Virus record (IMG/VR): IMGVR_UViG_3300009156_000026
Span: 37,734 to 101,733 of that record
Origin: a virus
Length of the DNA: 64,000 nucleotides
Reading direction: 5' to 3' (one strand)
Notes under the pieces: generated by a model
The model's input: only the letters and a program-made list of their open reading frames with translations
The model's database searches: none
Told to the model about the DNA's origin: nothing
Part shown: positions 22,001 to 60,417 of the stretch, in pieces
How positions within the stretch are numbered: the stretch's first letter is position 1
How the letters are laid out: every line of letters begins with the position of its first letter
Position numbers and translations under genes: made by a program

Positions 22001-25000
22001 CAGCATCTGCTTGGCTTCGGGGAGATGCCGACCCTCGATGCGCGGGCCTTGAACACCTGGATCACGGGTCAGGGCGACATCCGAGGGATGGACACCGAGG
22101 CCGCCCAGATCGCCCGGCTGATGAACCAGCACTACGCGGCCGACGCGACGGGGATCCTGACATTAGCCCGGATCATCAGCGGCTACAACCAGCTTCGCCG
22201 CTCCGGGTTCGCCCCCGACATCCCGAAGGCCGTCTACAACGCGGTCCTGCACAACTGGCTCTGGACCCGCATCAAGGGCCATGAGCGCACCTACGCCCCG
22301 ATGTACGAGGCCCAGGCAGCCCCGGTCGAGCCCATCCCCCAGACCGAGTGGTCGCGCGACGACTTCGAGACCCGCAACCAGATGATGGAATCCTGGATGC
22401 GCGACCCGTACGAGGCCGAGGATCGCGAGCTCGGGCCGTACGATCCCGATGCCCGCGAGGGCCCGTCCGCCATGGCGGCCGAGATCCCCTCGATCCCAGC
22501 CTACCTGCGAGAGCACGCCGTCCCGTTCGCTGGCTACGAGCCGAACACGATCGAGGGGCGGATGGAGCAGGTGCTGATGGACGCGGCCCGCGCCCAGGGC
22601 ACCAACCGACCGCAGTTCGAGAAGGGCGAGCTCGGCAAGCTTGAGCCGAAGTTCCTGCCCAGCCCGACCGCCACCAAGGTCGAGATCAAGAAGAACCCGG
22701 ACGGCACCAACAAGAAGGACAAGAAGGGCAAGGACGTCTGGGTCGAGAGCAACTACGGGGTAACGCCAGCCCTGGAAGATCAGCGGGTGGCGCTCCAGCT
22801 TGGGCGGCCGGCCTCGCGCTGGTACACCGAGCTTGCCCACTGGGTCTACGAGCGGGTCGGGCCCGAGGCGTTCGACGAGTTCCGCGTGATCTTCGGGGTG
22901 ACCTCCGCCCAGACCGAGCCGACCGAGAACATGGCGACGACGTTCGCCGCGATGAAGATCGCCCGCGAGATGGCGGCCGAGGGGATCCTCGACGACGCCC
23001 ACCGCGACGAGTTCCACGCGCGGATGAAGGCGTACCGGATCCCCAGCGTCAGTGAGGGGGTGGCCAACGTCGAGAAGGACGGCACCCCGAAGATGGTCGG
23101 CTTCCGGACCTACACCGAGGGCAAGGGCAAGCAGATCATGGACCTCTACACCACGGGGTCCGTGACGGTGCAGACGAACGCCAAGACCCCGTCCTACGCT
23201 GGCAACATGATCTCGGCCCTGATGGGCGTCTACGACCCGAACGTGACGGTCGACGTCTGGATGGCGCGGGCCATGAACTACTGGTCGACATCCTGGATGG
23301 CGACCTCGGATCAGGCGTACCGCGCATCGCACGCGATCTACAACTGGCTCGCGCGCGAGGAGGGCATCAGCCCGCACGAGGCCCAGGCCGCGATCTGGTT
23401 CCCGATCAAGACCGCCTGGGAGCGGGGCGGAACGGCGATCCGCCAGAAGATCCAGGATGGCGATCTGGCTGACGCGCTCCGAGACGCCGAGCAGGCTGGC
23501 CTGCTGCGCCCCGAGCTCATCCGTGGCGACCTCGCCGCGATCAACGCCGACGCCCGGGTCCAGCACGCCTGGGAGCAGCTTGCGCCCGTGATCGCCTCGT
23601 CTCCGCTCTCGCCAGGGCAGGCCGAGGCCGGCGTCACCGACATCGTCTACCCAGGCCAGACCAGAGGCCGAGGCGAGACCAAGGAGCCAGCCCGCCCGGT
23701 CGATCGGGCCCAGCGGGCGGCACTCCTGGACGTGGCCGAGGGACAGGCGCCGACGGTCGGGATCGTGGGGGTCCCTGACCGCGCCGCCCTCGGCTACGCC
23801 AACGGCCAGCTTGACTGGCTCGGCCAGCCGCATCAGGTGGTCCCGATCGGGGACGGGCTGATGGTCCGTCTGGTGGGCGGCAACCTCGACACCGCCCGCT
23901 ACGTCGCGGCCGAGCTTGGTGAGCGCGCCGGCGCCCCAGCGGTCTCGCTCCAGCTTGCCTCGACAGAAGGCAACGCGCTCGGCTACGTCTTCTCGTCCTC
24001 GGGGGAGGAGCCGATCGAGAAGGCCGATCTGGAGGCGATCTCGGCGCTGGTCGCGGGGACCGGCATCCCGCTGGTGGCAGATCCCGGCGGCCACTACGTG
24101 GCCCTGATTGACTCGCCGTCGGTACCCGAGGAGATCTATAATTCGACGGTCGACGCGATCGCCAACCTGGGGATCGCGGGACTTGAACAGGAGGGTTACC
24201 GTGGCTGGGCAGAGCATCTCCCTGCGGCCGAGTATCGAGGAACGATTCAAGCGCTTGGGCATCGGTTCGGCGCCGGCGAGCCACAAGATCTACCAGTCGG
24301 GGCCGCAGGTGGTGATCGTGCTGCCGAAGAAGGCGGAGCCGAAGCCCAAGGAGTAGGCCCGTCGGCCATGGGCGCGGAAGCTCCCTGGGCCGAGGGCTGG
24401 TCCCAGCCGACCCCCGAGGAGTTCCTGCGGATCCGCTCCCAGAGCGATCGCGGGGCGTACCTGTCGGCCTCGGACGTCGACAGTCTCAGGGGCAAGCGGC
24501 TCTTCGTCAAGCCGACCGACACGGGTGGCTACGCCGGGTTCGCGCTCGACGAGGACAACGACCTCCAGAACGTGTTCAACGTCCCGGGCCCTGACGGCCG
24601 GAAGTCGAAGGGGGCCGGGGTCGACGCGATGCTGATGGGGATCAGCCAGGGCGCCGACAAGCTGGACGCCTTCGACCCGTTCCTGCCGAAGTATTACCAT
24701 CAGTTCGGGTTCCGCGAGACGGGCCGCGTGCCGTTCAACGACGAGTACGCGCCCGAGGGCTGGGACTACGCCAATGGCCGCCCCGACGTGGTCCTGATGA
24801 CCTGGGACGGCTTCCACAACGGAGAGAGCCCCGATGACGTCCGCGCCAGGGTCGGAGGACCCAAGACCGAGTGGATCGCCCAGCCTCACGCCCGAACCTT
24901 CGACGACTGGGACCAAGCAGCGGAGGTACGCGACGGACGACTCGCTGACCTCCGAGGAGGTGCAGTTCCTGGACGAGTGCGTCCCGTTGCTGGGCCAGGA

Positions 25001-28000
25001 CGTGGTGGACCGGCAGTACGGCCTGATACTGGACCAGGGGCGGCAGGTCGGGGAGATCTAGCCGGGCCATCAGCCATGGTCGGACGTGAGGCGGCTATCA
25101 CCACTGGCGTCCCGCTTGACCTGCCGACCCGCCGTGGCTTCTTGCAGGCGGTAGAGAATACAGACGGCGCCCAGATCACACCCGACGGCCTCTCGGTCGA
25201 TCTGATCCGCTGGCAGCAGCCCGAGCAGGTTGGCGCCGAGGCTGGCCAGTCCGCCGTCTTCTACCTCGCTTCCGGCACGCACGCGCGGGACGTCGACACC
25301 TATCGCGGCACCTTCCTGGGCGACTATGGCGGCGACCAGCGGATCGCCGGGCCGTCGGTCTTTCGTCGGCCGTTCGTGGCGCGGGCGGGCGTGGGTGACG
25401 CTGCCATCGCGGCCTACGCTGCGCTCAATGGCCAGGAGGCCACCGATGCGATGCGCGGCCCGGTGGGTCGGCTCGGGGGCTTCCCGCGTCTCAGCCGCGA
25501 CGAGGTAGTCGCGCGTACCCGCGATATCTTGACCCGTCACGATGCCGGCCCAGAAGCCGCCGAGCAGATCGTGGACGCCTACCGCCTGGGTGCTCCGTTG
25601 GAGAACGCGGTCGAGGAGCGGATCGTCTCCCACGACTTGCGCCGCCGTGGGTACGACTCGGTCATCGGCTACAGCGGGGTCGGCCGCAACGCGCGCTTGA
25701 CCGAACTGATGGATGTGCGGGAGCGGACCTACCCTGATGAGACGGGGCAGACCGAACTGCACCCGCAGTTCGGTCCTGGCCCCTCGGCCATGGCGGCCGA
25801 GATCCCAGGCTGGGTACCCGTCAGCGGGATGCCGGACGACCTGCACCAAAGAGTCCTGTCGGGCAGCCCCCGGCTCCAGGCGGTCGCGGCCGAGAGCACC
25901 GCGACCTTGCAGGAAGCCCTGATGGAGGCGCTGGACTCGGACCCGCTGATGACCGACGCGGACCGTCAGGTCCTGCACGGCCACGCCAGCTTCTACACCT
26001 CCGCGATCGTCGGGCTCGCGACAGAAGATCCCGCCCGCCTGGAGGCGGTCGGGCTTGACTACGCATCGGCGGAGCTCGAGCGAGATCGGGCGATCGGGCA
26101 CCTCGAACGGATCGGACGGCTCGACGCGCTCTACAACGCCGAGGCCGCCTGGGCGAGCCTGTCCCCCCGTGACGATCCGAGCCAGGGCCGACCATCCGCC
26201 ATGGCCGGCGAGGTCCCGGTCACGCTGGCCGAGCCGTTCTACTCCAGGCTGACCCAGGTCGCAGGCGCGTTGCCCGAGATGATCGAGGGCAACCCGGGGC
26301 GGCTGGTAAGAGACAAGGCCCGCCCGGAGCGGGTCGTCAGAAGGGCGGCCCAGAACCCGAACCGCGAGGAGCCGCCGCCCGAGCGCGGCTGGATCATGGC
26401 CGAGGACGGAAGCTGGATCGAGCCGGCCCGTGAGGGGTCCGAGCGGATGGTCGAGGTGACCACGGGCGCCCAGGAGACCATGCGGCGACTCCGCGAGGCC
26501 GGGGCCAAGCCGGACGAGCTCGCCTGGACGGGCGTCGAGACGTGGCTGCGCGACCAGGGCGACGGCCCCATCGACCGGGCCGCGCTGATGGACCACCTCT
26601 CCCAGCGGCGCATTGTCGTCGAGGAGATGGTGCTCGGCGGGCGCGAGATCGGGCAGATCCACGTCTACCAGGACGGCCCCGAGGAGATCGTCGAGCAGGA
26701 GCCGTACGAGGTCGAGGAGGGGTACGAGGACGACGAGGGCAACTACGTCGAGCCGGAGTACCTGTACGACGACGAGTCCGAGCCGGAGTACCGCTACACC
26801 TTCCGGGCGGCCCCCGAGGAGAACGAGCTTGGCGACGAGCTCGTCTACGAGGCGACGGGCAACGACGACCAGGGCTACTGGGTCACCACGGTCGACGGCG
26901 AGCCGATCGGCAACGACCCCGTCGATGACCTGGAACGCGTCGAGCGGGCGATCGGGGACCACGCCCGCCTGCGGCTGGAGGAGCCGCTGCCCGAGGGCGT
27001 GGCCGGGCCCGTCCAGTTCGAGTGGGAGCCCGGGGATCCGTCCGCCCCGCTGGTCCAGCCCGGCGGCGAGGAGTACCGGGAGGTGCTGCTCATCCTGCCG
27101 TGGCGGGGCCGCGAGGAGCTCGCGCTCTTCGAGCAGGCGGCCGATCGCGCGTCCGATGCCTACCACGCGTTCACGGCCGACCACTCCTACGAGGAGCGGG
27201 TCGACGACCTCGACCTGCGCCGACAGTCTCTCGAGCTCCTGGATGCGGCCAACCGAGCCCGTGCAGAGCTCGACGCCAAGCGCGTGGAAGTCGAGCGCCA
27301 GCGGTACACCGGCAGCCACTTCACGCAGCCCGGGTCCTACAACCCGGTCGAGAACGTCGCGGTGCATGTCCGCATGACCACGCGGATCGGCCCCAACGGT
27401 GAGCGGCGGGTGTTCATCGAGGAGATCCAGTCGGACTGGCAGCAGCAGGGCCGCGAGAAGGGGTTCATGCCGAAGTCGGGCCTGCCGAAGGGGTACGCCG
27501 TCGAGTTTCGCCCGCCCTCGCGGATCGACCCCACCCAGGCAACCCGGATCGGTGGCCGCTTCGACAATGCGTCTGGTCGCTACGTGGACGAGACCGTCCT
27601 GGAGCCCGGCACCCCCGAGCACGCCCGCCAGATGCGGTCCTACTCGAAGTGGTACGCCGTGACGCCCGACGAGGCGGCCCGCGACGACGCGGCGTTCGAC
27701 AGCGAGGCGGAGGCGCGGACGTACCTGGAGCGCCAGATCGCCAAGGACAACCCGCCGCCCGAGTTTCCGTTCATGCGGACCGAAAGCTGGGCGACCCTGG
27801 CGTTCCGACGGATGATCCGCTGGGCCGCAGAACACGGCTACGACCAGATCGCCTGGACCACGGGCGCCCAGCAGAACGACCGCTACGGCCCCAGGCGGAT
27901 CAAGAACCCCGAGGCGCTGCCGAAGTTCTACGACGGGGTGCTGGTCACCGTCGCGACCGACCTCGGCAAGCCGTGGGGGGTCGCTCCCACCAGGAGCCAG

Positions 28001-31000
28001 ATCTCGGTCCACGAGACGGGCCAATTCGGACAGGTCGTCGAGCAGCCCGACGGCTGGCGGTACACCCTGCCGAACGGCACATCGCTCGGCGGGTACCCCA
28101 CCCAGGAGGCCGCCCAGGCCGCAGCCGATGCCGAGGCCGAGCGGGCGGGGACAGCGGAGGCGGTCCACGTCCTGGACATCCCGCCCCAGATGAAGCGCTC
28201 GGCGCTCGAAGAGGGCCAGCCGCTGTTCATGGCGGGCGAGATGCCGACGGGCCAGCCCCCGGGTGACCCCGAGGCGCAGTGGGACCGCCAGGACCCGCAG
28301 GACGCGACCGACCCGGCCCTGGCCGAGGCGATCGATCTCGACGGCGCGGTCCAGGAGATCGACGACCCGGACGCGTTGCCCAGGACCGACGGCCCCGAGC
28401 AAGTCCAGATGATCCTGCCGGGCTTTGACACGGTGCCGATCTCCGACGAGGAGTACGACCGCATCGTGGCTGCGCTCGACGCCAACGAGGCTGTCTCAGG
28501 CGCCCCGCCAGTGGGGGGCGCGGCCCCGCAAATATCGGCTCCGCCGACATCCCCGCCACCAGGACCGCCCGCACCCCCCATCTCGTTCCCCGAAGACGAG
28601 CCCGTGCCCGGGGTCCCGAACCTCGGGCCACCGACCGGCAATGAGCCAAACCTCGACCAGTTCCCGTCCTGGGCGCAGGCACTCCTGGAGATGGGATCGC
28701 TGGTCGAGATGGGCGATCCGAACGTCGGGATGCTGGGCGAGCGAGCGCGGCTGATCAGAGAAGTCCAGGCCCGCCCGAACGCCGAGGCGATGTCAGCCGC
28801 GCAGATCGAGGCGGCTGCCGACAGGATCCTGGCCCAGCGCCGTGAGTTCCGGGCCGCCAACGAGACCGAGTGGGCCGACGCGATCATGATGATAGCTGCC
28901 GGCCCGAACGCCGAGGGCCTGTCCAGGCGAGAGCAGCAGATCCTGGCCGGCGCGATCATGCGGCAGTACAAGCTGTTCCAGCGGGCGGCCGATCGGGCCC
29001 AGGGCCAGCGGGCTACCCCCTGGTCGGTGGCCCAGATGCTCGACGAGGCCCGCAAGTTCTCCGCGATCAGGGGACTCGCGATCACGCCAAGAGACCAGTG
29101 GGCGATGCTCGACGAGGTCTGGCGCTCGGCACCCGTGACGCAGGGCGCCTCTGGCACGCTGGAGGAGTTCCTGGAGGTGAGACAGGCAGCCCAGGACGCC
29201 GGCGACACCGACGCCGTGGCGCGCCTTGAGGAGGAGGGGATCGCCAGAGCAAGCGGGATGGTCGCACGGACCCGCCCGACGCCGATCGCGGGACGACGCC
29301 GAGCGACAGCCGAGGGCGAGCTCGTACGCTACGGACGGACGATGGCGGATCAGGTCCGTGGCGAGACCACCCCCTCCGAGGCGGCGGCAGCGGCAGCCGC
29401 CCCGGACCTGTCGATCCACCCGTGGGAGATCCTCTCGAACGTCCGCTACAACAACATGCTCTTGGGTCCCCGAGGCATCTTGAACGACTACGCCTGGAAC
29501 ACGGGCATGCTGTTCGGGAAGATGATGGCCGACCCCTTCTTGCCCGAGACGGGGGGGCTGGACCCGCGCGCCCGCTGGGCGATCACCAAGGTCGAGGCCG
29601 CCGCGATGGCTAGATACCTGCCGCTGGCGATCAGGCGGATGGGGCGGATCCTCTTCACGGGTGTCGACACCCTCGAATCCGAGGCCACGGGTGCCCCGCG
29701 TAACATCTCCGGGCGGCTCACCCGCCGGATCGAGAACGCCCGCGAGGAGGGCGCGGGCGAGCGCTCCCCGAAGCTGCTCAAGCTGAAGGCCAGCAAGGTC
29801 GGGGCGGTCCTGTTCGCGGAGCTCGCCGGCCGACTCAAGGGGATGGCCGACGTCGGGATCAAGCAGATCGCCTGGGGCATGGAGATGAACCGACAGGCCG
29901 CGATCCTGGCGTGGCGCGAGGGCGTCCACGAGGTCGACTCCGACGAGTGGCACGAGCGGATTGCCGAGATCATGGCCGGCAACATCGCGGGACCCAACGC
30001 CACCCCAGAGGAGCGCCGGGCGGCGACCGCGACCCACCTCCAGATGCAGAAGAACGCCCGCCGAGAGGCCGAGCGGACCACCTTCCAGGGCGACATGGGC
30101 ACCTTCGGACGCAAGCTGGAGCCGATCCAGCGCCACCCCGTGGGCCAGTTCGTCCTGCCGTTCTTGAAGACGCTCTACCACATCCGTGGCTGGGCCATCG
30201 ATTTCTCGCCGCTGGGGCTCGCTGGCACCGTCTACGACGTCGCTCGATCAGCCGCCTACAAGAAGGTGATGCAGTCCGATCGCGGCCAGCGGATGCTCGG
30301 GACCCCGAACATCCCGCTGCCGTTCGGGCAGGCGATCCCGACCCGCAACGCCTTCGGGATCCTGGGCGGGCCGTACCAGGACGCCTGGAGGGGCACCCAG
30401 GTGGGCCCGGGGGTGGCCGACCTCGACCGACGGCTGATGGCGAACATGATCGGCACGACCGGCTTCTTCTACCTGCTGGGGCTCGCCTTCGAGGGCGCGC
30501 TCTCGGCCAGCGGCCCGCCCGACGATCCGATCGTCTGGTTCGACGAGGAGCTCCCGTCGGGCGACGCCCGCTCGCTGAAGCGGACGATGCAGGCGACGGG
30601 CTGGCGGCCGTACTCGGTCAAGATCCCGTGGCGGGGCCAGGACTACTGGGTCAACTACTCGAACTGGGGCCCGCTCGGCTACATGATGGGCGCGGCTGCC
30701 GCGATCGGGGAGTCGTACCTGTACGGCGTCTCGGCCGAGAAGAAGCGGCCCTTGACGGGCAGTCCATTCCCGGACTCCTGGCAGGGCATCCAGGACCTCT
30801 GGAACGGGGGCGATGGCGATACCCTGCGGACCGCCCGCCGACGGTTCTTCGGGATGATCTCGGACGTGACCTTCCTGTCTGGCATGAGCGACCTCGTCAA
30901 GCTGACCGACGCGGCCTGGGATTGGGTGGTCCCGGAGGGGCCAGAGACGCCGAGCATGGCGCTCCGTCGCCAGCACGGGGCCCAGAACGAGATCGGGGCG

Positions 31001-32023
31001 TGGCTGGGCTGGAACGCCCTCGGGTCGTTCATGCCAGCGGCTGGGCTGACCCGCACGATCGCCCAGAGCCAGGACCCATACGCCAGATCCACCGAGTTCG
31101 GCGGCATCAGAGAAGGGCTGGCCTACGGCGTGCCGGACCTGGGCCCGGCGCCCGGGCTGCGGCTGCCGTTCGGCCTGCCGGACCTGCTCGCGACCCAGCA
31201 AGGGAGCCCGACTGGGCGACGCTCGGGGCTGGCCATCACGAGAGACGCGCTGGGCCGCCCGGTCGAGAGCGAGTACAGCGGCGCCTACGCGTGGCTGCCG
31301 TTCCGCGCGACCCAGGAGCACCTCGACGACGCCGTGCTGAACACGCTGCTCGACGCGAAGGTCGGCGCCCCCAGCCCGCCGAGCGAGTTGTTGTACAAGG
31401 TCGAGCGGCCGGGCCAGTGGACGCTGGTGGCGATGCCGCAGGCCCTTAGACAGGAGTTCGCCCGACGGGTGGGCGAGGCCGCCAACGCCCGCGTCCAGGC
31501 CGAGATGCAGGCGGTCCCCGAGGCCCAGCGCAAGGCCGACCCTGACGCCTGGAGCGATCGGCTGAAGGCGGCGATGAGCGAGACGTTCAAGACGGTCCGC
31601 AACGAGATGCAGGACGACCCGGCCGTCAAGGCCCAGCTAGCCGTCTTAGCTCAGGACTCCAACAGGACCCGCCCGTTCGAGTCAGCGGCAGCGGTCGACA
31701 AGCTGCTCGGCCGCGAGCCCGCAGCGACGCCCGGGGCCACGCCACGGCCGGGCGCAACGCCCGTAGCTACGCCTCCGCAGCCAGCCACCGATCCGAACGA
31801 GGCCGCCAACCGCGCTCGTCGAGCCGTCGGGCTGCCAGACTTGCCTCCTGGTCAACAGGCACCCGTGACCGCCCCTGCCACTCCACCAGCGGGTACCCCG
31901 ACGACGCCAGCGCCCGTCAGGACGCCGTCAGCGACCCAGGCGCCCGCAGCCCCGGCGGCGACTGATCAGAAGGAAGCGGTGAACAGGTCGCGACGGGCCG
32001 TTGGGCTGCCGCCCCTGCCGTAG
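13046..32023 (+). CDS. giant (6325 aa) polyvalent virion/ejection protein with multiple enzymatic modules
   Basis: Uninterrupted 19-kb ORF with GC3 bias; recognisable lysozyme-like, M23, amidase, HExxH, ART-like, HhH-GPD-like and GNAT-like segments, plus motifs typical of phage large polyvalent proteins. Confidence 0.95.
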   Translation: MAAEEWEYEYDYDQPEDSGEDTSYEYEEPSYEEPSYEEPVYQEPSYQEPSYEEGGDWYDAYARGYSGGGLGYVAPEAEPESWYDAYAQAFSPRVEQRPTDPYAWSYNEGGRPETIDTWADGRPMDEKAAKQARIYRVALENGLDEEGARVLVAVTETEAGLFGALGDGGQSRGPFQFYEGGQMPAFRQWVQANGIPGDPNQLVHDPEIATSFAASNYLGAAIKRGQAQGLHGADLATYAQRTGQVSVSPERTGENYQRLFATGDPYGDAIRVAQPSAGARARANAQIPPGHWDGDGHDHGVATPYTQQQVGRDGSVWQIAFDFDQPYADPFNPQIPNHRGVDLQLAGAPNGGENTPYTAMRNGRVVKITNDPHGGIGIIVDTGDPSARYDRYFHNNAVSVREGDVVQAGRTNLGVIGQTGSQGFPHLHYEVSQNVDGDPMGQTIDPRPYLGPPPGRPQAAVRAQPGAPWDPYAPYGGAQQQQPRAAAAVAAQPNVVELTTPYTSGRRQTTDGIVIHATRGQGETPQAEYEWTLGWFGKNPYQVSANAVIGPDGQIAMPRDWDLITHHAGENNATKFGIELAQSAADSARGVPYTDAQYASLGWLLGQLHQRYGIPIDRSHVVGHEELDQGRRQNKTDPGENFDWGRALQLGAQPQRGVPAQQATQTARVAPAAPYQDVGGTAPGRPPAGTPTPATGGSYTVGGRPATREQYDAAVASDRESRDRFLAQLPEPTRNAYTEWEAFRRSRGEDPNDIPAFRAHIDRLGVENPWTGQEQRREQARVAREQFEASLPETTRTQFREWAADREARGQDLTLPAFREHLGALGAPDPWTAQEQAARAAAARPAAATPPPPAGRTVYRLAGGTEISEAQAQEIGRQNAAAERINAGYNERIAAARVERERLRTWQAQSDAYFNDPNGQLPHPGPRPSTENLDWLEADAARGADTGAREQPITVVSSYNEPASADEVAAARARAEARVQTGALTREAAASSDPLVQAAQAAQARSTQLLQQVENQRILDRESPLDPRYIALVRSQELQRQGAMQEGPLPQLTDQEIAMPTIRPAQPERFNQAIYDYYRNRGYSEEQARAEATLAPAREATMEPPSPRVIQADPVPEVDPNISTYEALANAAIRGTAGLATGLYNIPEAVGYYTGQTWLEEESRERIRGIQGAVRESGALRQSGNQWYQSPLGFFEGAAENLPNVAATVGAAFLTGGGSIAAMAAGGGARVVAPLLVRGGMAASRAALVAGSLASGGQMRESLRDEVAAGLINQETADFAGAVAAATEALTETVMPGLDRMVLRGFGLQAAKEIGHELIKRGLGGALKTVGGEIVNEAGEELVTEAVGIGTDLAFSAQKPTMLEAAERLATAGVMGGALGGAMAGPITASGAVVQALEGRRETANARQLDAAFGSPADQLARDGVQVVVASPDFGTYAVRHIDPTNPNRQRAFTLNISEDAEGNAVVTPGGAYRGEPLRTIDLQDPTADRMRAARNAGAALTYLNQQGVISNETASGAIESLQKRAEAAASGAAVATQARPSREASLEEGPERSEGYIKPDGWSDVGTIPGTDLHLRAADHLPQPLVSQIMRAEADRVIAASVSELTDRMDKRSQDLGITPRTIVRRLMGTSLYGAGMIAQNDNIFVEGTRNRETGIGTLGGFQFDTGAIIFDAINDAKEAGYSLAQFLDPRVGGRFLAAKIAEVAVHEPSHDVNAYHGERFHQTMTAYRQALVAEQRALEPIMRELVSSGAVERSLALHAQMYRDHARHWYWRGRGRDVAAELAARDARRGTPLGGAIDVRRPDSQGGRGARPAAARPVPADGRGVGAITLRGPGLRPAAQAGEPATGVPELGPPSPLVSREAAMASGVPVEMPSDPRVQQALARTPGIQVTPDGLVVDATRFQRRGSGGAPSLSGNVYYGVSGPETTIGGDNSYYDQRDRLVYGGSEAVRGPTVLRRPFVGTSGAFHPEGAQTIAEAVGDQDAARPLAVLNQAGFLNTASPEARAAITDAMEQYGVDRAIPERIFQALDSGLIREQAARSNLSEAVAGEALRRAGYDGYIRLNPDNTVDSIMDVREQTYPDEEGRTALHPQFEGAAPAVTRSADGYEQIGMFDSDEVRPSNMAAREAALSRPIPTRVQYPPEVAQQLQAAGLELQPERGLVVPMAAPAAGGVEADRRPDGGISFTELTPGPGGREVALANPIIHQGGTMATDRAQALADLLGEDPGTGSRLVEAIQDAIAQDGPTTENVRTIMASIGLGDPDQAALLVKAARGDTGQGSGSLANHIVSQMLAHEGRIHGHDGLVTLGPDGAPSIASFQRPQDTADTGYVVDDGQLLYRGEAETPPSYQVQDGQLVHQGTGYEVQDGRPVYQGPSAMVPSIRPMRDAVEAEIAKMEGHRTESLARAEQSGDSWGYDANNARLLEQQIARRRAVLDRVESRAPLDFPGVEPRIIVPAEAGEGVTTSSDWNGGVRAWAQINGATVRGVPIDVDDERVPDVLYHATTNLPAVQRSGMLRAGGVGGLGGDNRDNIVSLTISRPIADGIARDLRTAIDVARIPEPATVQVPWEDSRGRTHYSTEWADPEEYQRYREAVITRLQAQARTEGWTWDAEHISPTAAGRDIFSTYFQVRSYQTDLKNPLIYTELDALRLIDPENIGVVEVPRDALRTGALLTDLDLGRNHLEEIRSYGDVPLQPGVPTSGPSAMQGELPPPPPIVRPDQRSSQPFPSNVIIPRQFIAPDLRAGPETELAEPPPFAGPPLVGTEEAIDAGWAGIPDPRTPIENRADLHNRLVLTRFLSQRELKEILGERPQDLQQVIDFMVAQRQKVVEGRLLPSDVAKAYLMTVSSQGQGAIDPQIILDKTGLAIPDHFLTPNRDGVRQIRAEDAAAAWIASPTGQRTLAQLDQGTFDEAGWENAASIRAAFSDDRLNNNNVMGTRPNRRGRISMRDVVALTADLNQIGDNPRAMAAAVERLNGIGPRKTGFIQHLLGFGEMPTLDARALNTWITGQGDIRGMDTEAAQIARLMNQHYAADATGILTLARIISGYNQLRRSGFAPDIPKAVYNAVLHNWLWTRIKGHERTYAPMYEAQAAPVEPIPQTEWSRDDFETRNQMMESWMRDPYEAEDRELGPYDPDAREGPSAMAAEIPSIPAYLREHAVPFAGYEPNTIEGRMEQVLMDAARAQGTNRPQFEKGELGKLEPKFLPSPTATKVEIKKNPDGTNKKDKKGKDVWVESNYGVTPALEDQRVALQLGRPASRWYTELAHWVYERVGPEAFDEFRVIFGVTSAQTEPTENMATTFAAMKIAREMAAEGILDDAHRDEFHARMKAYRIPSVSEGVANVEKDGTPKMVGFRTYTEGKGKQIMDLYTTGSVTVQTNAKTPSYAGNMISALMGVYDPNVTVDVWMARAMNYWSTSWMATSDQAYRASHAIYNWLAREEGISPHEAQAAIWFPIKTAWERGGTAIRQKIQDGDLADALRDAEQAGLLRPELIRGDLAAINADARVQHAWEQLAPVIASSPLSPGQAEAGVTDIVYPGQTRGRGETKEPARPVDRAQRAALLDVAEGQAPTVGIVGVPDRAALGYANGQLDWLGQPHQVVPIGDGLMVRLVGGNLDTARYVAAELGERAGAPAVSLQLASTEGNALGYVFSSSGEEPIEKADLEAISALVAGTGIPLVADPGGHYVALIDSPSVPEEIYNSTVDAIANLGIAGLEQEGYRGWAEHLPAAEYRGTIQALGHRFGAGEPQDLPVGAAGGDRAAEEGGAEAQGVGPSAMGAEAPWAEGWSQPTPEEFLRIRSQSDRGAYLSASDVDSLRGKRLFVKPTDTGGYAGFALDEDNDLQNVFNVPGPDGRKSKGAGVDAMLMGISQGADKLDAFDPFLPKYYHQFGFRETGRVPFNDEYAPEGWDYANGRPDVVLMTWDGFHNGESPDDVRARVGGPKTEWIAQPHARTFDDWDQAAEVRDGRLADLRGGAVPGRVRPVAGPGRGGPAVRPDTGPGAAGRGDLAGPSAMVGREAAITTGVPLDLPTRRGFLQAVENTDGAQITPDGLSVDLIRWQQPEQVGAEAGQSAVFYLASGTHARDVDTYRGTFLGDYGGDQRIAGPSVFRRPFVARAGVGDAAIAAYAALNGQEATDAMRGPVGRLGGFPRLSRDEVVARTRDILTRHDAGPEAAEQIVDAYRLGAPLENAVEERIVSHDLRRRGYDSVIGYSGVGRNARLTELMDVRERTYPDETGQTELHPQFGPGPSAMAAEIPGWVPVSGMPDDLHQRVLSGSPRLQAVAAESTATLQEALMEALDSDPLMTDADRQVLHGHASFYTSAIVGLATEDPARLEAVGLDYASAELERDRAIGHLERIGRLDALYNAEAAWASLSPRDDPSQGRPSAMAGEVPVTLAEPFYSRLTQVAGALPEMIEGNPGRLVRDKARPERVVRRAAQNPNREEPPPERGWIMAEDGSWIEPAREGSERMVEVTTGAQETMRRLREAGAKPDELAWTGVETWLRDQGDGPIDRAALMDHLSQRRIVVEEMVLGGREIGQIHVYQDGPEEIVEQEPYEVEEGYEDDEGNYVEPEYLYDDESEPEYRYTFRAAPEENELGDELVYEATGNDDQGYWVTTVDGEPIGNDPVDDLERVERAIGDHARLRLEEPLPEGVAGPVQFEWEPGDPSAPLVQPGGEEYREVLLILPWRGREELALFEQAADRASDAYHAFTADHSYEERVDDLDLRRQSLELLDAANRARAELDAKRVEVERQRYTGSHFTQPGSYNPVENVAVHVRMTTRIGPNGERRVFIEEIQSDWQQQGREKGFMPKSGLPKGYAVEFRPPSRIDPTQATRIGGRFDNASGRYVDETVLEPGTPEHARQMRSYSKWYAVTPDEAARDDAAFDSEAEARTYLERQIAKDNPPPEFPFMRTESWATLAFRRMIRWAAEHGYDQIAWTTGAQQNDRYGPRRIKNPEALPKFYDGVLVTVATDLGKPWGVAPTRSQISVHETGQFGQVVEQPDGWRYTLPNGTSLGGYPTQEAAQAAADAEAERAGTAEAVHVLDIPPQMKRSALEEGQPLFMAGEMPTGQPPGDPEAQWDRQDPQDATDPALAEAIDLDGAVQEIDDPDALPRTDGPEQVQMILPGFDTVPISDEEYDRIVAALDANEAVSGAPPVGGAAPQISAPPTSPPPGPPAPPISFPEDEPVPGVPNLGPPTGNEPNLDQFPSWAQALLEMGSLVEMGDPNVGMLGERARLIREVQARPNAEAMSAAQIEAAADRILAQRREFRAANETEWADAIMMIAAGPNAEGLSRREQQILAGAIMRQYKLFQRAADRAQGQRATPWSVAQMLDEARKFSAIRGLAITPRDQWAMLDEVWRSAPVTQGASGTLEEFLEVRQAAQDAGDTDAVARLEEEGIARASGMVARTRPTPIAGRRRATAEGELVRYGRTMADQVRGETTPSEAAAAAAAPDLSIHPWEILSNVRYNNMLLGPRGILNDYAWNTGMLFGKMMADPFLPETGGLDPRARWAITKVEAAAMARYLPLAIRRMGRILFTGVDTLESEATGAPRNISGRLTRRIENAREEGAGERSPKLLKLKASKVGAVLFAELAGRLKGMADVGIKQIAWGMEMNRQAAILAWREGVHEVDSDEWHERIAEIMAGNIAGPNATPEERRAATATHLQMQKNARREAERTTFQGDMGTFGRKLEPIQRHPVGQFVLPFLKTLYHIRGWAIDFSPLGLAGTVYDVARSAAYKKVMQSDRGQRMLGTPNIPLPFGQAIPTRNAFGILGGPYQDAWRGTQVGPGVADLDRRLMANMIGTTGFFYLLGLAFEGALSASGPPDDPIVWFDEELPSGDARSLKRTMQATGWRPYSVKIPWRGQDYWVNYSNWGPLGYMMGAAAAIGESYLYGVSAEKKRPLTGSPFPDSWQGIQDLWNGGDGDTLRTARRRFFGMISDVTFLSGMSDLVKLTDAAWDWVVPEGPETPSMALRRQHGAQNEIGAWLGWNALGSFMPAAGLTRTIAQSQDPYARSTEFGGIREGLAYGVPDLGPAPGLRLPFGLPDLLATQQGSPTGRRSGLAITRDALGRPVESEYSGAYAWLPFRATQEHLDDAVLNTLLDAKVGAPSPPSELLYKVERPGQWTLVAMPQALRQEFARRVGEAANARVQAEMQAVPEAQRKADPDAWSDRLKAAMSETFKTVRNEMQDDPAVKAQLAVLAQDSNRTRPFESAAAVDKLLGREPAATPGATPRPGATPVATPPQPATDPNEAANRARRAVGLPDLPPGQQAPVTAPATPPAGTPTTPAPVRTPSATQAPAAPAATDQKEAVNRSRRAVGLPPLP
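13440..13830 (+). other. domain in giant protein: lytic transglycosylase/lysozyme-like
   Basis: LVAVTETEAGLFGALGDGGQSRGPFQF: catalytic-Glu helix followed by a G-x-G-x-F-Q motif. Confidence 0.65.
13990..14395 (+). other. domain in giant protein: M23 (LytM) peptidase
   Basis: HRGVDL, RYFH, IGQTG-SQGFPHLHYEV, TIDPRPYL. Confidence 0.9.
14570..14995 (+). other. domain in giant protein: N-acetylmuramoyl-L-alanine amidase (Amidase_2)
   Basis: GIVIHAT, SANAVIGPDG, HHAGENN, FGIEL, YTDAQY, VVGHEEL, KTDPGENFDW. Confidence 0.85.
17950..18350 (+). other. domain in giant protein: HExxH zincin-like metallopeptidase
   Basis: VAVHEPSHDVNAYHGERF (HExxH-x5-H) at about 18157-18210. Confidence 0.6.
18381..18605 (+). 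CDS. nested overprinted gene A in +1 frame of the giant ORF (74 aa, RHH/CopG-like helices)
   Basis: GAGGAAGGGG RBS, ATG at 18381; GC3-rich codons in this frame; LRMAEESGLSRSEVLAYAL resembles RHH helices; the giant frame here is R/G/P-rich shadow-like sequence. Confidence 0.6.
   Translation: MSQPSSQPEMPDAGLPSGELLMFVGLIVKAAEEQDQRLLDLYLRMAEESGLSRSEVLAYALRRRPGNPLLASLS
18625..19330 (+). other. domain in giant protein: duplicated module copy 1, degenerate ADP-ribosyltransferase-like
   Basis: Paralogous to 25085-25770; VYY...YGG...RRPFV...GYDGYI...MDVRE pattern recalls ART-like domains of polyvalent proteins. Confidence 0.45.
20530..21125 (+). other. domain in giant protein: ART/PARP-like module
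   Basis: LYHATT (strand-1 His), IVSLT (central S-x-T), terminal LEEIRSY glutamate. Confidence 0.5.
21450..22280 (+). other. domain in giant protein: HhH-GPD (Ogg-like) DNA glycosylase-like
   Basis: LNGIGPRKTGFIQHLLGFGEMPTLDARALNTW resembles the GIGxK...LGF...LD..L.W signature of 8-oxoG glycosylase/lyases. Confidence 0.55.
22810..23410 (+). other. domain in giant protein: second HhH-GPD-like phage domain
   Basis: WY...VTSAQT..TEN...KTPSY...VTVDVWMARA...Y...A...G..P.EAQAAIW pattern of a widespread phage glycosylase-fold family. Confidence 0.55.
24201..24356 (+). CDS. nested overprinted gene B in +1 frame of the giant ORF (51 aa)
   Basis: Strong SD CAGGAGGG 5 nt before GTG at 24201; MAGQSISLRPSIEERFKRLGIG...QVVIVLPKK; TAG overlaps the GPSAM glycine codon. 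Confidence 0.55.
   Translation: MAGQSISLRPSIEERFKRLGIGSAPASHKIYQSGPQVVIVLPKKAEPKPKE
24400..24810 (+). other. domain in giant protein: GNAT acetyltransferase-like
   Basis: AGFAL...LQNVFN...KGAG...GADKLDAFDPFLPKYYHQFGFRE: motif A/B-like with the Y..FGF signature. Confidence 0.6.
24834..25061 (+). CDS. nested overprinted gene C in +1 frame of the giant ORF (75 aa)
   Basis: GGAGAG SD before ATG at 24834; C-terminal half LTSEEVQFLDECVPLLGQDVVDRQYGLILDQ is protein-like while the giant frame is R/G-rich; TAG lies 3 nt before a GPSAM motif. Confidence 0.55.
   Translation: MTSAPGSEDPRPSGSPSLTPEPSTTGTKQRRYATDDSLTSEEVQFLDECVPLLGQDVVDRQYGLILDQGRQVGEI
25085..25770 (+). other. domain in giant protein: duplicated module copy 2
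   Basis: REAAITTGVP...ITPDGL.VD..R.Q...VFY...YGG...RRPFV...GYD.VI...MDVRERTYPDETGQTELHPQF, colinear with 18625-19330. Confidence 0.6.
26230..28230 (+). other. domain in giant protein: large-polyvalent-protein-type module
   Basis: PFYSRL...GAKPDELAWTG, PGGEEYREVLL, GSHF...HVRM, FIEEIQSDWQQQGR, GYDQIAWTTG, VLDIPPQMK...GQPLF are motifs typical of large polyvalent phage proteins. Confidence 0.6.
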
Positions 32024-57980: not shown

Positions 57981-58526
57981 CTACATATCGTCCAGGATGT
58001 CGTCGAGCACGTCCCCGACCACCGCGTCGTCCGGCAGCGGCGCCAGCTTCCGCTCGGCAAGCTCGAAGAACCGCTTGTGCAGCGCCGAGTCGACCTCGCG
58101 CCCTCGGTACATCTCACGGACCAGTTGGACGTCCTTCTTGTTGAGGTCCTCGACTCTGAGCCAGAGACCCTCGCGATCGGGGCTGACGGGCAGGCCGTAC
58201 TGGTCGACCTCGCCATCGGCTGCGCCGTGCTCGACGCAGAAGATCCGTCGCAGCCGCAGCTTCTCGCCGGACTGCCCGATCAGCAGCCAGCGTCGGTTCT
58301 TGAAGCTGGACTGGACGTAGTAGTACAGCCCCTGGTCGAGGATCTGGCCGACCCGTTTGCGGTAGGCGGGCTGGAACATGTCGTTCGGCTCTGACGGCAG
58401 CCGCGCGTACTTGGCGAGCTCCTTCTGGGCGGCCTTGGTCTTGATGCCGTGCCGCCACGCCCCGGCCTCGACGCGGGTGATCAGTCGCTCCATCGCCGGC
58501 TTGTAGTCGCCGTAGTCCCGCCGCAC
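57981..58526 (-). CDS. hypothetical protein downstream of the Cas7-like gene (181 aa); C-terminal domain similar to 59815-60417
   Basis: GGGAGG RBS plus GTG; shared L.K..V.L...R...RFF...L...VGD pattern. Confidence 0.8.
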   Translation of the reverse strand: MRRDYGDYKPAMERLITRVEAGAWRHGIKTKAAQKELAKYARLPSEPNDMFQPAYRKRVGQILDQGLYYYVQSSFKNRRWLLIGQSGEKLRLRRIFCVEHGAADGEVDQYGLPVSPDREGLWLRVEDLNKKDVQLVREMYRGREVDSALHKRFFELAERKLAPLPDDAVVGDVLDDILDDM

Positions 58527-58549: not shown

Positions 58550-58590
58550 CCCATGAAGATCGTGTCAGGCGAAGCCTGGATCTTCATGGG
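58550..58590. other. hairpin immediately after the Cas7-like stop codon (12-bp stem, bulge, GCGAAGC minihairpin)
   Basis: CCCATGAAGATC-gtgt-CAGGC-GAA-GCCTG-GATCTTCATGGG. Confidence 0.8.
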
Positions 58591-58594
58591 ATCC

Positions 58595-59581
58595 TTAGCG
58601 ACGCCGTCTCATGGTCATGGGCGAGCCACCCCGCTGGTGGGTACCCCGGGTTGGGTCAAGGATCGGAGACGCCTCCGTGTCGATGGGTGCGCGGGCCCGC
58701 GCCGTCGTCGGAGCGAGGCGCTGCACGGGTGCGCCCGTGCCGTTGGACGACGGGCTGGTCGGCGGGGTCGGGACCCGTGAGGTGGTCTCCTCGATCACGC
58801 GATCGAACGTCGCCGCGTCGATCTTCTCCCAGCGCCGCATGAAGAAGCGCCCGAAGTCCTGGCTGCGCTTGGCGCCGAGCCCGTGCTGCTGGGCGTACCG
58901 CCAGAGGTCGATCCACTTGTCGTGCCCCAGGCGGTCTCGGAGCGCCATCACCACGAACGTCACGGTCGGCCGCTCGGAATACTCGTAGTACCCGAGCGCC
59001 GAGCGGGGGCCCTGCGGGCCGACGACGTGCTGGACCGACAGGTCGATGCCGGTCGGCTCGCTCATCCCGAGCGGGATGTTCAAGGGCTCGATCGAGATCG
59101 TCTCGATCAGGTACGACCTGGGGGACTTGCCTCGGGTCTGCTTGGTCTCGCCCGTCTTCTTGTCGGTGGTGGTCTTGCCGCCCCAGCCGATGTTGTCCCA
59201 CGGCCAGAGGATGTTGCACGACTCGCGCAGCATCGCCTTGACCTGCCGCGACTCGATGTAGATGCCGAAGCGGGGGTCGCGCTTGAAGACGGTCGTCTGG
59301 GACTTGGCGGCGATCGCCTCGGCCGCCTCGCGCAGGCTCTTGAAGGTCCGCTCCTCGCCGGGGAAGAGCTCGTCGACATCGACCCCGATCTCCTTGAGGG
59401 TGGTCAGGCCGAGGTCGTAGATCTCCTGCTGGCGGGAGACCCCCAGGTTGCGCATCAGCCACTGCTCGATGAGGCGTGCGTCCGAGGGGATGCCAGCGAC
59501 GAGGCGGTCGCGAAACTCCAGGGTGGCGACGTAGTACGAGAAGAGCTCCGACGGCTGGTCGTCAAAGATACCGCGCTGCAT
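58595..59581 (-). CDS. stand-alone Cas7/RAMP-like protein (328 aa), VIPR-like effector candidate
   Basis: AAGGAG RBS then ATG at 59581; RRM beta1 ATLEFRDRLVAGIP; IYIESRQVKAMLRE (cf. Cas7/Csm3 YIPGSSLKG.LR); beta-hairpin thumb QHVVGPQGPRSALGYYE; C-terminal Gly-rich loop GLGAKRSQDFGRF. Confidence 0.8.
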   Translation of the reverse strand: MQRGIFDDQPSELFSYYVATLEFRDRLVAGIPSDARLIEQWLMRNLGVSRQQEIYDLGLTTLKEIGVDVDELFPGEERTFKSLREAAEAIAAKSQTTVFKRDPRFGIYIESRQVKAMLRESCNILWPWDNIGWGGKTTTDKKTGETKQTRGKSPRSYLIETISIEPLNIPLGMSEPTGIDLSVQHVVGPQGPRSALGYYEYSERPTVTFVVMALRDRLGHDKWIDLWRYAQQHGLGAKRSQDFGRFFMRRWEKIDAATFDRVIEETTSRVPTPPTSPSSNGTGAPVQRLAPTTARARAPIDTEASPILDPTRGTHQRGGSPMTMRRRR

Positions 59582-59593
59582 GATCGGCTCCTT

Positions 59594-59814
59594 GGACTGG
59601 TCGGGGCTGGCCCGGGAGGATTGAGGGTGTACCGGCCCGGCCTGTCGAGGTGGCATGGCGAGGGGTGGCCGAGTCTGTCTTGGCTGGGGGGGTCGGCGTG
59701 GTCCGGCTCGGCTGGGGTGGGGCAGGGGCAGCCTGGAACGATGCGGTCCGACCTGGAACGTCGCTCGGGCGAGGGCGGCGGCGTGACGCGGCGACACGAG
59801 GTGGCATGTGGTCC
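59594..59814 (+). repeat. 5-nt periodic GG-anchored array (candidate guide-RNA array) in the leader of the Cas7-like gene
   Basis: On the + strand, 29 of 45 in-phase units start with GG (GGACT GGTCG GGGCT GGCCC ... GGCGT GGTCC GGCTC GGCTG GGGTG GGGCA ...); three phase blocks each offset by a 3-nt unit; CGAGGTGGCATG occurs at 59646 and 59797. Confidence 0.75.
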
Positions 59815-60417
59815 TCAGCCTGCAACCTGCTGAGCGCCGTCGTCGCCGTCCTGCTGCGGCGGGATCGGCTGGTTGGCGCAGATCGCCTGGAACATCTCCT
59901 CCAGGCGGTCGGCACTGTGGCGGTCCCCGATCTGCTCGCCGGCCTGCATGATCGTGTCACACTCGCGGAGCAGCCTGATGCGGCGCTCCTCGGCGTCCCG
60001 ACGCGTCATCCGCGCGGCGATCGCCAGCGGGATCTGCTCCTTGGTCAGCGCCATCAGCTTGACGTGGCGGCCGTCGACGTACTCGGTGTGGTTGAGCCAG
60101 CGCAGGCGGTTCTGCTGGCCCAGCCGGCCTCGCCGCATCTGCTCGCGGATCGACCAGGGCGCAGGTGACGGCGGGGCCGCCGCAGCCGTCGCTGCGGCCT
60201 TGGCCTGCTGGGATCGGAGCCGCTGGCGGCCGAGCACCTGCATCCCTTCGCTGTAGACCAGGGTGTACAGCGTCTCGGTCACGTAGGCGTCCAGGAGCAG
60301 CTTGTCGGCTCGGATGTCGGCCGTGATGTCGGCCGCGATGCCCGGTAAGGTGAAGTCGTCAAGCGGCTCGAAGCGGTCCTCGAACCGCTTGCTGATAAGC
60401 TGCCGGGTCGTGGTCAC
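59815..60417 (-). CDS. hypothetical protein upstream of the array (200 aa); C-terminal domain similar to 57981-58526
   Basis: GAGGAGG RBS plus GTG; stop codon abuts the pentamer array. Confidence 0.8.
   Translation of the reverse strand: MTTTRQLISKRFEDRFEPLDDFTLPGIAADITADIRADKLLLDAYVTETLYTLVYSEGMQVLGRQRLRSQQAKAAATAAAAPPSPAPWSIREQMRRGRLGQQNRLRWLNHTEYVDGRHVKLMALTKEQIPLAIAARMTRRDAEERRIRLLRECDTIMQAGEQIGDRHSADRLEEMFQAICANQPIPPQQDGDDGAQQVAG

What the first reader, a model, noticed from the sequence alone, without database searches (positions are those of the whole stretch)
58595..59814. CRISPR-less Cas7-like gene with a 5-nt periodic GG array in its leader: candidate RNA-guided (VIPR-like) phage system
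Seen: a 328-aa protein with RAMP/Cas7 hallmarks (LVAGIP, IYIESRQVKAMLRE, beta-hairpin thumb, GLGAKRSQDFGRF). No cas1/2/3/5/6/10 or CRISPR array occurs anywhere in 64 kb. The whole 230-nt gap upstream is a pentamer-periodic tract. Block 1 (59594-59651): GGACT GGTCG GGGCT GGCCC GGGAG GATTG AGGGT GTACC GGCCC GGCCT GTCGA GGT. Block 2 (59652-59689): GGCAT GGCGA GGGGT GGCCG AGTCT GTCTT GGCTG GGG. Block 3 (59690-59814): 15 of 25 units start with GG and 20 of 25 with G. Positions 4-5 vary freely. Established: Cas7 subunits polymerise on guide RNA with a fixed nucleotide step. From memory, not checked here: recently reported phage VIPR systems pair a Cas7-like protein with GGY/NN repeat RNAs whose NN positions specify a gapped DNA target. 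Inference: this is such a module, possibly a divergent variant because third positions include G/A and many units are GA/GT, and it may act against competing phages or for transcriptional repression.
Basis: partly seen in the sequence, partly recalled or inferred. Interest (0 to 1): 0.95.

Follow-up and report, generated by a model that had tools for sequence, protein, structure and literature searches.

The report
Phage VIPR system with pentamer guide arrays
A 108.7-kb high-GC phage carries a stand-alone Cas7-like (Vipr) gene next to a GG-every-five-bases repeat tract, so it is a real, divergent member of the recently described VIPR RNA-guided silencing systems, and it has a second, 1.6-kb array elsewhere in the genome.

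Summary
The gap 59582-59814 has the strongest GG lag-5/10 signal of 10,846 windows in the phage genome (z 5.6 against dinucleotide shuffles). The 328-aa protein folds as a RAMP. Its best AlphaFold-DB matches include all five proteins used to discover VIPR, and its best PDB matches are Cas7/Csm3/Cmr4. No Cas1, Pfam RAMP or CRISPR-like repeat occurs in the 108.7 kb.

Homologues (28-70% identity, 20 loci, GC 45-72%) carry the same kind of tract next to the gene. A second, 1.6-kb non-coding array lies 73 kb away, outside the window.

It differs from the characterised type II system (phage SUSP1) in four ways:
- The base after GG is not restricted to a pyrimidine.
- Arrays are back-to-back modules of 5n+3 nt (mode 38), separated by a 3-nt G-TC slip, with no recognisable 3' tail.
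- The G-rich strand is antisense to vipr in 19 of 20 loci.
- The protein is larger.

Which strand is the RNA is unresolved; I favour the G strand about 70:30. In a relative, one module spells seven codons of a sibling phage's vipr gene (20/21 nt). No target was found for this phage. Verdict: a new member of a known, very recent kind.

The parts
58595..59581 (-). vipr-like gene, 328 aa. RAMP core is roughly residues 1-256: strand 14-23, helical insertion 35-93, helix-1 111-125 (ESRQVKAMLRE), long beta-hairpin 178-203 with GPQGPRS at its tip (assigned here as the thumb), and G-loop 234-246 (GLGAKRSQDFGRF). Residues 257-328 form a low-confidence, basic, P/T/R-rich tail.
   Evidence: Translation. 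Twenty word-index homologues and 600 cluster representatives at E<=1e-3. Alignment A1 with an invariant G-loop. AF2 model, pLDDT 74.7. Foldseek PDB top matches are Cmr4/Csm3/type VII Cas7. AFDB top 7 contain all five VIPR seeds (seeds listed). Single copy in the genome.
59588..59593 (-). Ribosome-binding site AAGGAG, 6 nt upstream of ATG 59581
   Evidence: Read directly from the sequence. Homologues start at the equivalent Met.
59594..59651 (+). Array block 1: 11 GGNNN-phase pentamers plus 3 nt on the G-rich (+) strand
   Evidence: Layout and HMM phase segmentation.
59652..59688 (+). Array block 2: one module of 37-38 nt (7 pentamers plus a 3-nt slip), the modal module size of the family
   Evidence: Module statistics over 12 arrays.
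59689..59760 (+). Array block 3: 14 pentamers in one phase, 11 starting GG, ending in G|TC
59761..59814 (.). Rest of the intergenic gap, only weakly periodic. No significant RNA fold on either strand.
   Evidence: assigned to background. Fold z-scores -0.02 and 0.44.
59815..60417 (-). 200-aa gene (P0002) upstream of the array: candidate accessory (vap-like) gene, function unknown
   Evidence: Found upstream of the array and vipr in L002, L005, L016 and L023. No Pfam or PHROGs hit. AF2 pLDDT 73 with no informative fold match.
58550..58590 (-). Stable hairpin just after the vipr stop codon: 13-bp outer stem with a 4-nt bulge and a 5-bp cap, no U-tract
   Evidence: MFE -31.4 kcal/mol, z = -4.25, 0 of 200 shuffles fold as well.
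57981..58526 (-). Downstream 181-aa gene of unknown function. Not conserved next to vipr in relatives and not a detectable paralogue of P0002.
   Evidence: No Pfam hit. No homologue in related loci. BLASTP against P0002 gives E = 27.

Best explanation
This is a VIPR (Viral Interference Programmable Repeat) system of a divergent clade, carried by a roughly 109-kb high-GC tailed phage. The 328-aa RAMP protein (Vipr) is inferred to polymerise along RNA transcribed from the pentamer arrays, one protomer per GGNNN unit. It would hold the GG dinucleotides and display the variable bases, which pair with a gapped or codon-phased DNA target and silence it. This follows what was shown for phage SUSP1 and P. 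fulva VIPR.

The phage has two guide stores. One is a 170-nt array between vipr and the upstream 200-aa gene (59591-59760). The other is a 1.6-kb solo array 73 kb away (genome 23,290-24,910).

Arrays in this clade are built from back-to-back modules of 5n+3 nt, most often 38 nt (7 pentamers plus a G-TC slip). Each module probably acts as one short guide for about 21 bp.

Shown here: the periodicity, the RAMP fold and its nearness to the VIPR seeds, the conserved gene-array linkage, the module architecture, and the absence of cas1, Pfam RAMP genes and CRISPR-like arrays.

Inferred: transcription, filament assembly, DNA silencing and the anti-competitor role. I take the G-rich strand, antisense to vipr, as the RNA with about 70% weight.
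For: Periodicity: top of 10,846 genome windows, z 5.6.

Fold: Foldseek against PDB gives Cas7-family proteins first, E 3.5e-7. Against AFDB clusters, A0A1F4YLN4 (E 1e-12), A0A2D6XG06, X1U2U4, A0A0F9A1L0 and A0A661D0E2 rank 1, 2, 3, 5 and 7. These are exactly the five VIPR discovery hits named in the paper. A profile search of PDB sequences hits the Csm4/Cas5 G-loop weakly.

Linkage: lag-5 tracts lie next to the gene in L002/L003, L005/L006/L007, L009, L012, L013 and 12 of 15 further loci.

Module architecture: 123 of 191 phase changes are +3, and modal lengths are 38, 33, 43 and 28 nt.

Context: virus record, CheckV 89% complete, no Cas1 or Pfam RAMP, with terminase, capsid and lysin genes.

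G strand as the RNA: in L013 a small array reads as canonical GGT/NN (T at position 3 in 92%) on the same strand as the large arrays, directly after a sense-strand terminator. L027 has arrays in both orientations around one gene.

Guide function in the clade: module L005:9932-9892 matches 20/21 nt of the L007 vipr gene in codon register, and no shuffle set reaches that.
Against: No RNA data. The only run holding this DNA is a wastewater library kept as contigs, probably DNA, and it covers only part of the gene.

No promoter or terminator was found on either strand, and no conserved 3' tail or significant fold.

The pyrimidine after GG that defines GGY/NN is absent here.

The arrays fill the intergenic gaps flush with the stop codon and the RBS, and are C-rich on the local sense strand in 19 of 20 loci. 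This would be simpler if the sense strand were the RNA.

In a low-confidence alignment, the SUSP1 residues that read the two guanines (D177, W178) align to A237 and K238 here.

No target was found for this phage's own modules.
Confidence: 0.85

Rival explanations
1. Same VIPR-type system, but the guide is the C-rich sense strand. It would be co-transcribed with vipr and the flanking genes and read as CC-R-NN, a complementary-base version of GG-Y-NN.
For: The C-rich strand is the vipr sense strand in 19 of 20 loci, whether the array is upstream, downstream or remote. In SUSP1 the guide strand is the vipr sense strand. Arrays abut the stop codon and the RBS, leaving no room for their own promoter. 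The L005 guide-target match puts the paired bases right after GG. On the C strand this gives the canonical order of two fixed bases, one semi-fixed base, then NN. The residues aligned to D177/W178 are not conserved. A second preprint reports non-canonical cores such as GAC/NN and CAC/NN. The C strand is nearly unstructured.
Against: There is no precedent for a CC core. The L013 small array is canonical GGT/NN on the G strand and sits behind a sense-strand terminator. L027 carries both orientations, so antisense array transcription must occur somewhere in this family.
Confidence: 0.22
2. The tract acts as DNA, not as a guide RNA. It could be a phased protein-binding or structure-forming array (G-quadruplex or i-motif, origin or regulatory region) that merely neighbours a RAMP-fold gene.
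For: No transcript evidence. G-runs at regular spacing could form G4 structures. The locus lies in the replication module, near DnaB and HTH genes.
Against: Linkage to a Vipr-like RAMP holds across 28-70% identity and 45-72% GC. Positions 3-5 are hypervariable while GG is kept. One module spells a gene segment in codon register. The same architecture is experimentally an RNA guide in SUSP1.
Confidence: 0.03
3. Chance or compositional artefact of a GC-rich intergenic region, or coding sequence of a longer 400-aa ORF.
For: The ORF is open to 59797. The genome is 70% GC.
Against: Rank 1 of 10,846 windows and z 5.6. A period of 5 is incompatible with codons. Homologues start at the ATG. The sister array has flat codon-position GC.
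Confidence: 0.01

Closest known systems
VIPR type II of Escherichia phage SUSP1 (vipr plus vap1 plus four vrRNAs; bioRxiv 10.64898/2026.04.26.720920 and 10.64898/2026.04.26.720927)
   Same: Phage-borne, stand-alone minimal RAMP with a G-loop ending in FGRF. Arrays of GG-anchored pentamers lie in the flanking intergenic DNA. No cas genes and no CRISPR array. One protomer per 5-nt repeat and 3 bp of target per repeat is the likely geometry.
   Different: SUSP1 vrRNAs have 9-16 YNNGG repeats plus a structured 3' tail and their own promoter, on the same strand as vipr. Here there is no pyrimidine rule. Modules are 5n+3 nt and abut each other without tails. The G strand is antisense to vipr. The protein is 328 aa against 195 aa, with only weak profile similarity (hhalign E 0.019). 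The array load is about ten times larger.
Non-canonical and 'staggered' VIPR arrays (NNNGG, YNNNG, NNNNG types; staggered arrays; non-canonical cores in 10.64898/2026.10.21.760802)
   Same: Pentamer arrays with a relaxed core next to Vipr-fold proteins. Adjacent guides abut without spacers.
   Different: The figures and data tables are not held, so I could not check whether this clade, its 5n+3 modules or its antisense arrangement are among those described.
Solo (orphan) vrRNAs of satellites and SUSP1-family phages (10.64898/2026.10.15.759431)
   Same: Guide arrays far from any vipr gene, and guides aimed at relatives' vipr genes (abstract). Compare the 1.6-kb remote array here and the L005 module matching vipr codons.
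   Different: Those are single vrRNAs of about 100 nt with tails. Here a continuous 1.6-kb block of roughly 35-40 modules sits in the same genome as vipr.
Class 1 CRISPR Cas7 backbone (Csm3/Cmr4/type VII Cas7)
   Same: RRM core, thumb hairpin and G-loop. Best PDB matches. Periodic base flipping along a guide.
   Different: No Cas5/6/10/11, Cas1/2 or repeat-spacer array. Period is 5 rather than 6. The guide information is interleaved with the fixed bases.

Membership tests
VIPR | Vipr protein: single-RRM RAMP with thumb and glycine-rich loop | tested here: met
   AF2 model. Foldseek against PDB gives Cas7-family proteins at the top. Invariant GLGAxRSQxFGRF loop.
VIPR | Closer to known Vipr proteins than to CRISPR RAMPs | tested here: met
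   All five published discovery seeds rank 1, 2, 3, 5 and 7 among AFDB clusters, E 1e-12 to 5e-6 (against the list). No phylogeny was built.
VIPR | Minimal locus without cas genes or a CRISPR array, mostly viral | tested here: met
   Virus record. No Cas1 or Pfam RAMP in 108.7 kb. No CRISPR-like tandem repeat in the window. Phage structural and lysis genes present.
VIPR | Tandem pentanucleotide repeats (at least 4 units) in intergenic DNA flanking vipr | tested here: met
   Also seen in homologous loci.
VIPR | Canonical GGY core (pyrimidine after GG) | tested here: not met
   Y at position 3 is 0.58 (window array) and 0.55 (remote array), against 0.91 in the SUSP1 control. The paper accepts NNNGG variants as VIPR, so this does not exclude membership.
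VIPR | vrRNA of 9-16 repeats followed by a conserved structured 3' tail | tested here: inconclusive
   Window blocks have 11, 7 and 14 pentamers. The family mode is 7. No conserved tail and no significant fold. No Rfam family, including hammerhead.
VIPR | Array is transcribed and the RNA binds Vipr | not testable with these tools
   The only run found holds a 242-nt piece of the gene as a contig, probably DNA.
VIPR | Variable bases match natural targets under a skip rule, in codon register | tested here: inconclusive
   No enrichment for this phage's modules. One module of relative L005 matches vipr codons LIEAWIM at 20/21 nt, with 0 of 20 shuffle sets reaching that.
VIPR | Accessory vap gene next to vipr | tested here: inconclusive
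   The 200-aa P0002 is linked to vipr in L002, L005, L016 and L023. It has no recognisable DNA-binding or nuclease fold.
CRISPR-Cas class 1 (type III/IV-like) | Cas7 together with Cas5 or a large subunit, Cas6, and a repeat-spacer array | tested here: not met
   Single RAMP gene. No Pfam RAMP or Cas1. No repeat-spacer array.

The most novel reading that the evidence does not exclude
This clade uses a different code and a different guide format from the characterised VIPR. The guides would be tail-less mini-guides of 5n+3 nt (about 7 repeats, about 21 bp) packed head to tail in kilobase arrays. The bases read would be those directly after the fixed dinucleotide, possibly all three (NNN/GG, full codons, no skipped base). 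The guide might even be the C-rich sense strand (CC-R-NN). Synonymous differences would then spare the phage's own vipr, while a sibling's allele is hit.
Probability: 0.3. Interest if true: 0.85.

Novelty: new member of a known kind. Interest (0 to 1): 0.62.

Why it matters
VIPR was described only in 2026, and experiments cover types II, III and V. This locus extends it to a large, high-GC tailed phage and to a metagenomic protein family with 600 cluster representatives at 50% identity.

It offers a natural system with dozens of short guides, a remote kilobase array and a relaxed core. That makes three open questions directly testable:
- How are guides without tails delimited and processed?
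- Can the third variable base be read?
- Must the guide strand be G-rich?

If the short-module format works, it would be an even more compact programmable DNA-binding platform than the one published.

Tried and rejected
**Family and sequence searches**
- Pfam and PHROGs on the protein and on P0002 gave nothing useful.
- blastn against phage records found no match.
- tblastn against phages found only 'Microcystis phage Mae-JY09'.
- Rfam gathering search on the window and L001 gave 0 hits.
- Sigma-70 and terminator scans found nothing in the high-GC loci and only weak hints in L012 and L013.
- TRF does not detect the arrays, because the copies are too dissimilar.
- The VIPR paper's supplementary tables are not held, so the VIPR type could not be assigned.
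- `genome search` 'relatives' is not available for a virus record. `protein comparison` with an alignment failed, so hhalign was run locally instead.

**RNA evidence**
- One wastewater run, kept as contigs, covered only 59051-59290. It gives no strand information.

**Target searches**
- Ten skip and position codes were run against the phage's own genome and related loci. None was enriched over shuffles.
- Two scans of viral contigs with 10-repeat, 1-nt-skip patterns gave 0 hits.
- In-frame and peptide-level searches against Vipr genes found nothing significant for this phage. The best was 13/14 to the L015 vipr, within chance.

**Composition and periodicity tests**
- The reverse complement of positions 4-5 fits codon positions 1-2 best. 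The gain over the genome dinucleotide null is only about 20 log-likelihood units, and an independent-marginals model fits far better, so this is weak.
- Fourier power at period 5 fails on these arrays because the phase slips every ~38 nt or so.

**P0002**
- AF2 plus Foldseek (PDB, AFDB) and the ESM Atlas gave no informative match.

Full report
**1. What is there**

The window is part of a single 108,690-bp IMG/VR virus record: 70% GC, CheckV 89% complete. It encodes a terminase, a capsid protein and lysins.

On the - strand the gene order is P0002 (59815-60417, 200 aa), a 233-nt gap, then a 328-aa gene (58595-59581). The 328-aa gene has an AAGGAG site 6 nt before its ATG. The frame stays open up to 59797, but homologues begin at the ATG, so the gap is non-coding.

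**2. Is the periodicity real?**

Yes. GG co-occurs at lags 5 and 10 nearly twice as often as expected.

The gap scores highest of 10,846 windows of 233 nt, scanned for both GG and CC across the genome. It exceeds all 1000 dinucleotide-preserving shuffles, z = 5.6.

Only one other region stands out: genome 23,290-24,910, outside the window (fetched as L001). It is 1.6 kb without codon-position GC structure and is G-rich on the - strand between + strand genes.

A simple phase HMM shows three phase blocks in the window tract: 59591-59651, 59652-59688 and 59689-59760. The remote tract resolves into about 35-40 modules. Many have the form TC-(GGNNN)7-8-G, 38 or 43 nt long.

**3. The protein**

Pfam and PHROGs are silent.

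The family is large in metagenomes. A word-index search found 20 homologues. A full HMMER scan found 600 representatives at E<=1e-3.

The alignment shows an invariant C-terminal GLGAxRSQxFGRF loop, a YIESRxVKAMLRE helix and a GPQGPRS hairpin tip.

The AF2 model has pLDDT 74.7.
- Against PDB, Cmr4, Csm3 and type VII Cas7 match best.
- Against AlphaFold-DB clusters, the five proteins that seeded the discovery of VIPR rank 1, 2, 3, 5 and 7 (seed list).
- A profile search of PDB sequences weakly hits the Csm4/Cas5 G-loop.

There is one copy in the genome. There is no Cas1, no Pfam RAMP and no CRISPR-like repeat.

**4. Is the gene-array link conserved?**

I fetched loci for homologues from 70% down to 26% identity, with GC from 45% to 72%. 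A lag-5 tract lies directly upstream or downstream of the gene in:
- L002/L003/L004 and L005/L006/L007
- 'Microcystis phage Mae-JY09'
- a Tara Oceans contig, L012, and a 45%-GC contig, L013
- 12 of 15 further loci from prokaryotic MAGs and IMG/VR

In low-GC loci the pattern is plain. L012 has nine modules, mostly exactly 38 nt: TT-GCAKT-(GGNNN)6-G.

Over 12 arrays, 123 of 191 phase changes are +3. The commonest module lengths are 38, 33, 43 and 28 nt, that is 5n+3.

**5. Comparison with the published system**

The VIPR papers describe a Vipr RAMP of about 20 kDa. It polymerises one protomer per repeat on vrRNAs made of 9-16 GGY/NN repeats plus a structured 3' tail. The filament sequesters GGY and pairs NN with DNA while skipping every third base. 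The result is transcriptional silencing of competing phages and satellites.

As a control I located the SUSP1 locus: vipr at 28474-29061 (-), with arrays on both sides. My scan finds those arrays. They lie on the vipr sense strand, with a pyrimidine after GG in 91% of units.

The present clade differs in five ways:
- **(a)** A pyrimidine follows GG in only 0.55-0.58 of units here, and 0.27-0.74 across the family.
- **(b)** The modules are short and abut each other, with no recognisable tail or significant fold and no ribozyme.
- **(c)** The G-rich strand is antisense to vipr in 19 of 20 loci.
- **(d)** The protein is larger, with a helical insertion, an extra loop and a disordered basic tail. 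Its similarity to SUSP1 Vipr is only weakly detectable by profile comparison. In that low-confidence alignment the guanine-reading D177/W178 align to A237/K238.
- **(e)** The total guide load is far larger.

The papers mention NNNGG-type repeats, 'staggered' arrays of abutting vrRNAs, non-canonical cores and solo vrRNAs. These differences may therefore fall inside what is already catalogued. The figures and tables are not held, so I could not check.

**6. Which strand is the RNA?**

This is unresolved.

For the G strand:
- All biochemistry so far concerns GG.
- In L013 a small array reads as canonical GGT/NN (T in 92% of units) on the same strand as the large arrays. It sits immediately after a sense-strand intrinsic terminator.
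- L027 has arrays in both orientations around one gene, so orientation is not tied to vipr transcription.

For the C strand:
- Co-orientation with vipr and with local genes is near-universal.
- The arrays fill their gaps flush with the stop codon and the RBS.
- The register inferred below gives the canonical order (two fixed bases, one semi-fixed, then NN) only on the C strand.

I weight the two readings 70:30. Read data could not help.

**7. A guide-target pair in a relative**

I scanned all modules against all fetched DNA under several codes. No general enrichment appeared, but there was one outlier.

Module L005:9932-9892 reads GG-CTG GG-ATT GG-GAA GA-GCC GG-TGG GG-ATC GG-ATG. Its triplets spell LIEAWIM, which is residues 37-43 of the Vipr protein of that clade.
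- It matches the vipr gene on contig L007 at 20/21 nt.
- It matches L005's own vipr at 18/21 nt. All 14 first and second codon positions match, and the three mismatches are at wobble positions.
- No shuffle set of 309 guides reached 20/21 (maximum 19 in 20 sets). By extrapolation the family-wise chance is roughly 0.06, before counting the codon register and the location in vipr.
- At the peptide level it is the only 7/7 match.

The match spans exactly one module. If real, it says three things:
- One module is one guide.
- The paired bases are the two right after GG.
- The fifth base lies opposite the wobble base and may carry information.

It also fits the published idea that guides target relatives' VIPR genes. 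This is a single example in a relative, so I treat it as a lead. For this window's own modules nothing significant was found.

**8. Accessory gene**

P0002 homologues sit upstream of the array and vipr in L002, L005, L016 and L023. That makes P0002 the best vap candidate. Neither sequence nor fold searches say what it does.

The downstream 181-aa gene is not conserved and is not a detectable paralogue of P0002.

**9. Verdict**

This is a genuine member of a kind of system published in 2026. Its clade has a relaxed core, short tail-less 5n+3 modules, antisense array orientation and a kilobase solo array.

The function against competitors and the exact code are inferred, not shown.

Noticed in passing
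L001:1291-2911 (genome 23,290-24,910; outside the window): Second, 1.6-kb non-coding pentamer array of about 35-40 modules, G-rich on the - strand between + strand genes, 73 kb from the only vipr gene. A gene with a nucleoside 2-deoxyribosyltransferase domain lies just downstream.
   Followed up: yes
L005:9892-9932 against L007:823-843 and L005:10109-10129: One array module of a related phage spells the vipr codons LIEAWIM. It matches a sibling contig's vipr at 20/21 nt and its own at 18/21, with all mismatches at wobble positions.
   Followed up: yes
L013:4036-4131: A small array with canonical GGT/NN units sits in the same locus as large non-canonical arrays, on the strand antisense to the vipr-like gene and right after a sense-strand terminator.
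   Followed up: partly
L009 (PP395641.1, 'Microcystis phage Mae-JY09') 37713-38900: The only INPHARED phage with a homologue (34% identity). The gene is the last in the record and is followed by a C-rich pentamer array. The genome is 72% GC, which from my own knowledge looks high for a Microcystis phage.
   Followed up: partly
L023:2386-2997 and L016:377-988: These relatives (40% identity) have a roughly 600-nt C-rich gap between a P0002-like gene and vipr. It is punctuated by a recurring (C)TTCGAC about every 40-70 nt, but shows no GG/CC lag-5 signal. It may be a more degenerate array type.
   Followed up: no
L010:6822-8096 and L011:4832-6001: Homologues (38% identity) sit next to gene-free gaps of more than 1 kb in which my GG/CC scan finds no pentamer signal.
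   Followed up: no
window 13046-32023 (+): A single open frame of 6325 aa with Peptidase_M23 and Amidase_2 domains near its N-terminus. The C-terminal half has no Pfam match. Presumably a giant virion or ejection protein.
   Followed up: partly
window 58550-58590 (-): Very stable hairpin between the vipr stop codon and the next gene (z -4.25), without a U-tract.
   Followed up: partly
window 58595-58810 (-), residues 257-328 of the protein: Low-complexity P/T/R-rich tail ending in RRRR, present only in the closest relatives and modelled with pLDDT below 50.
   Followed up: no
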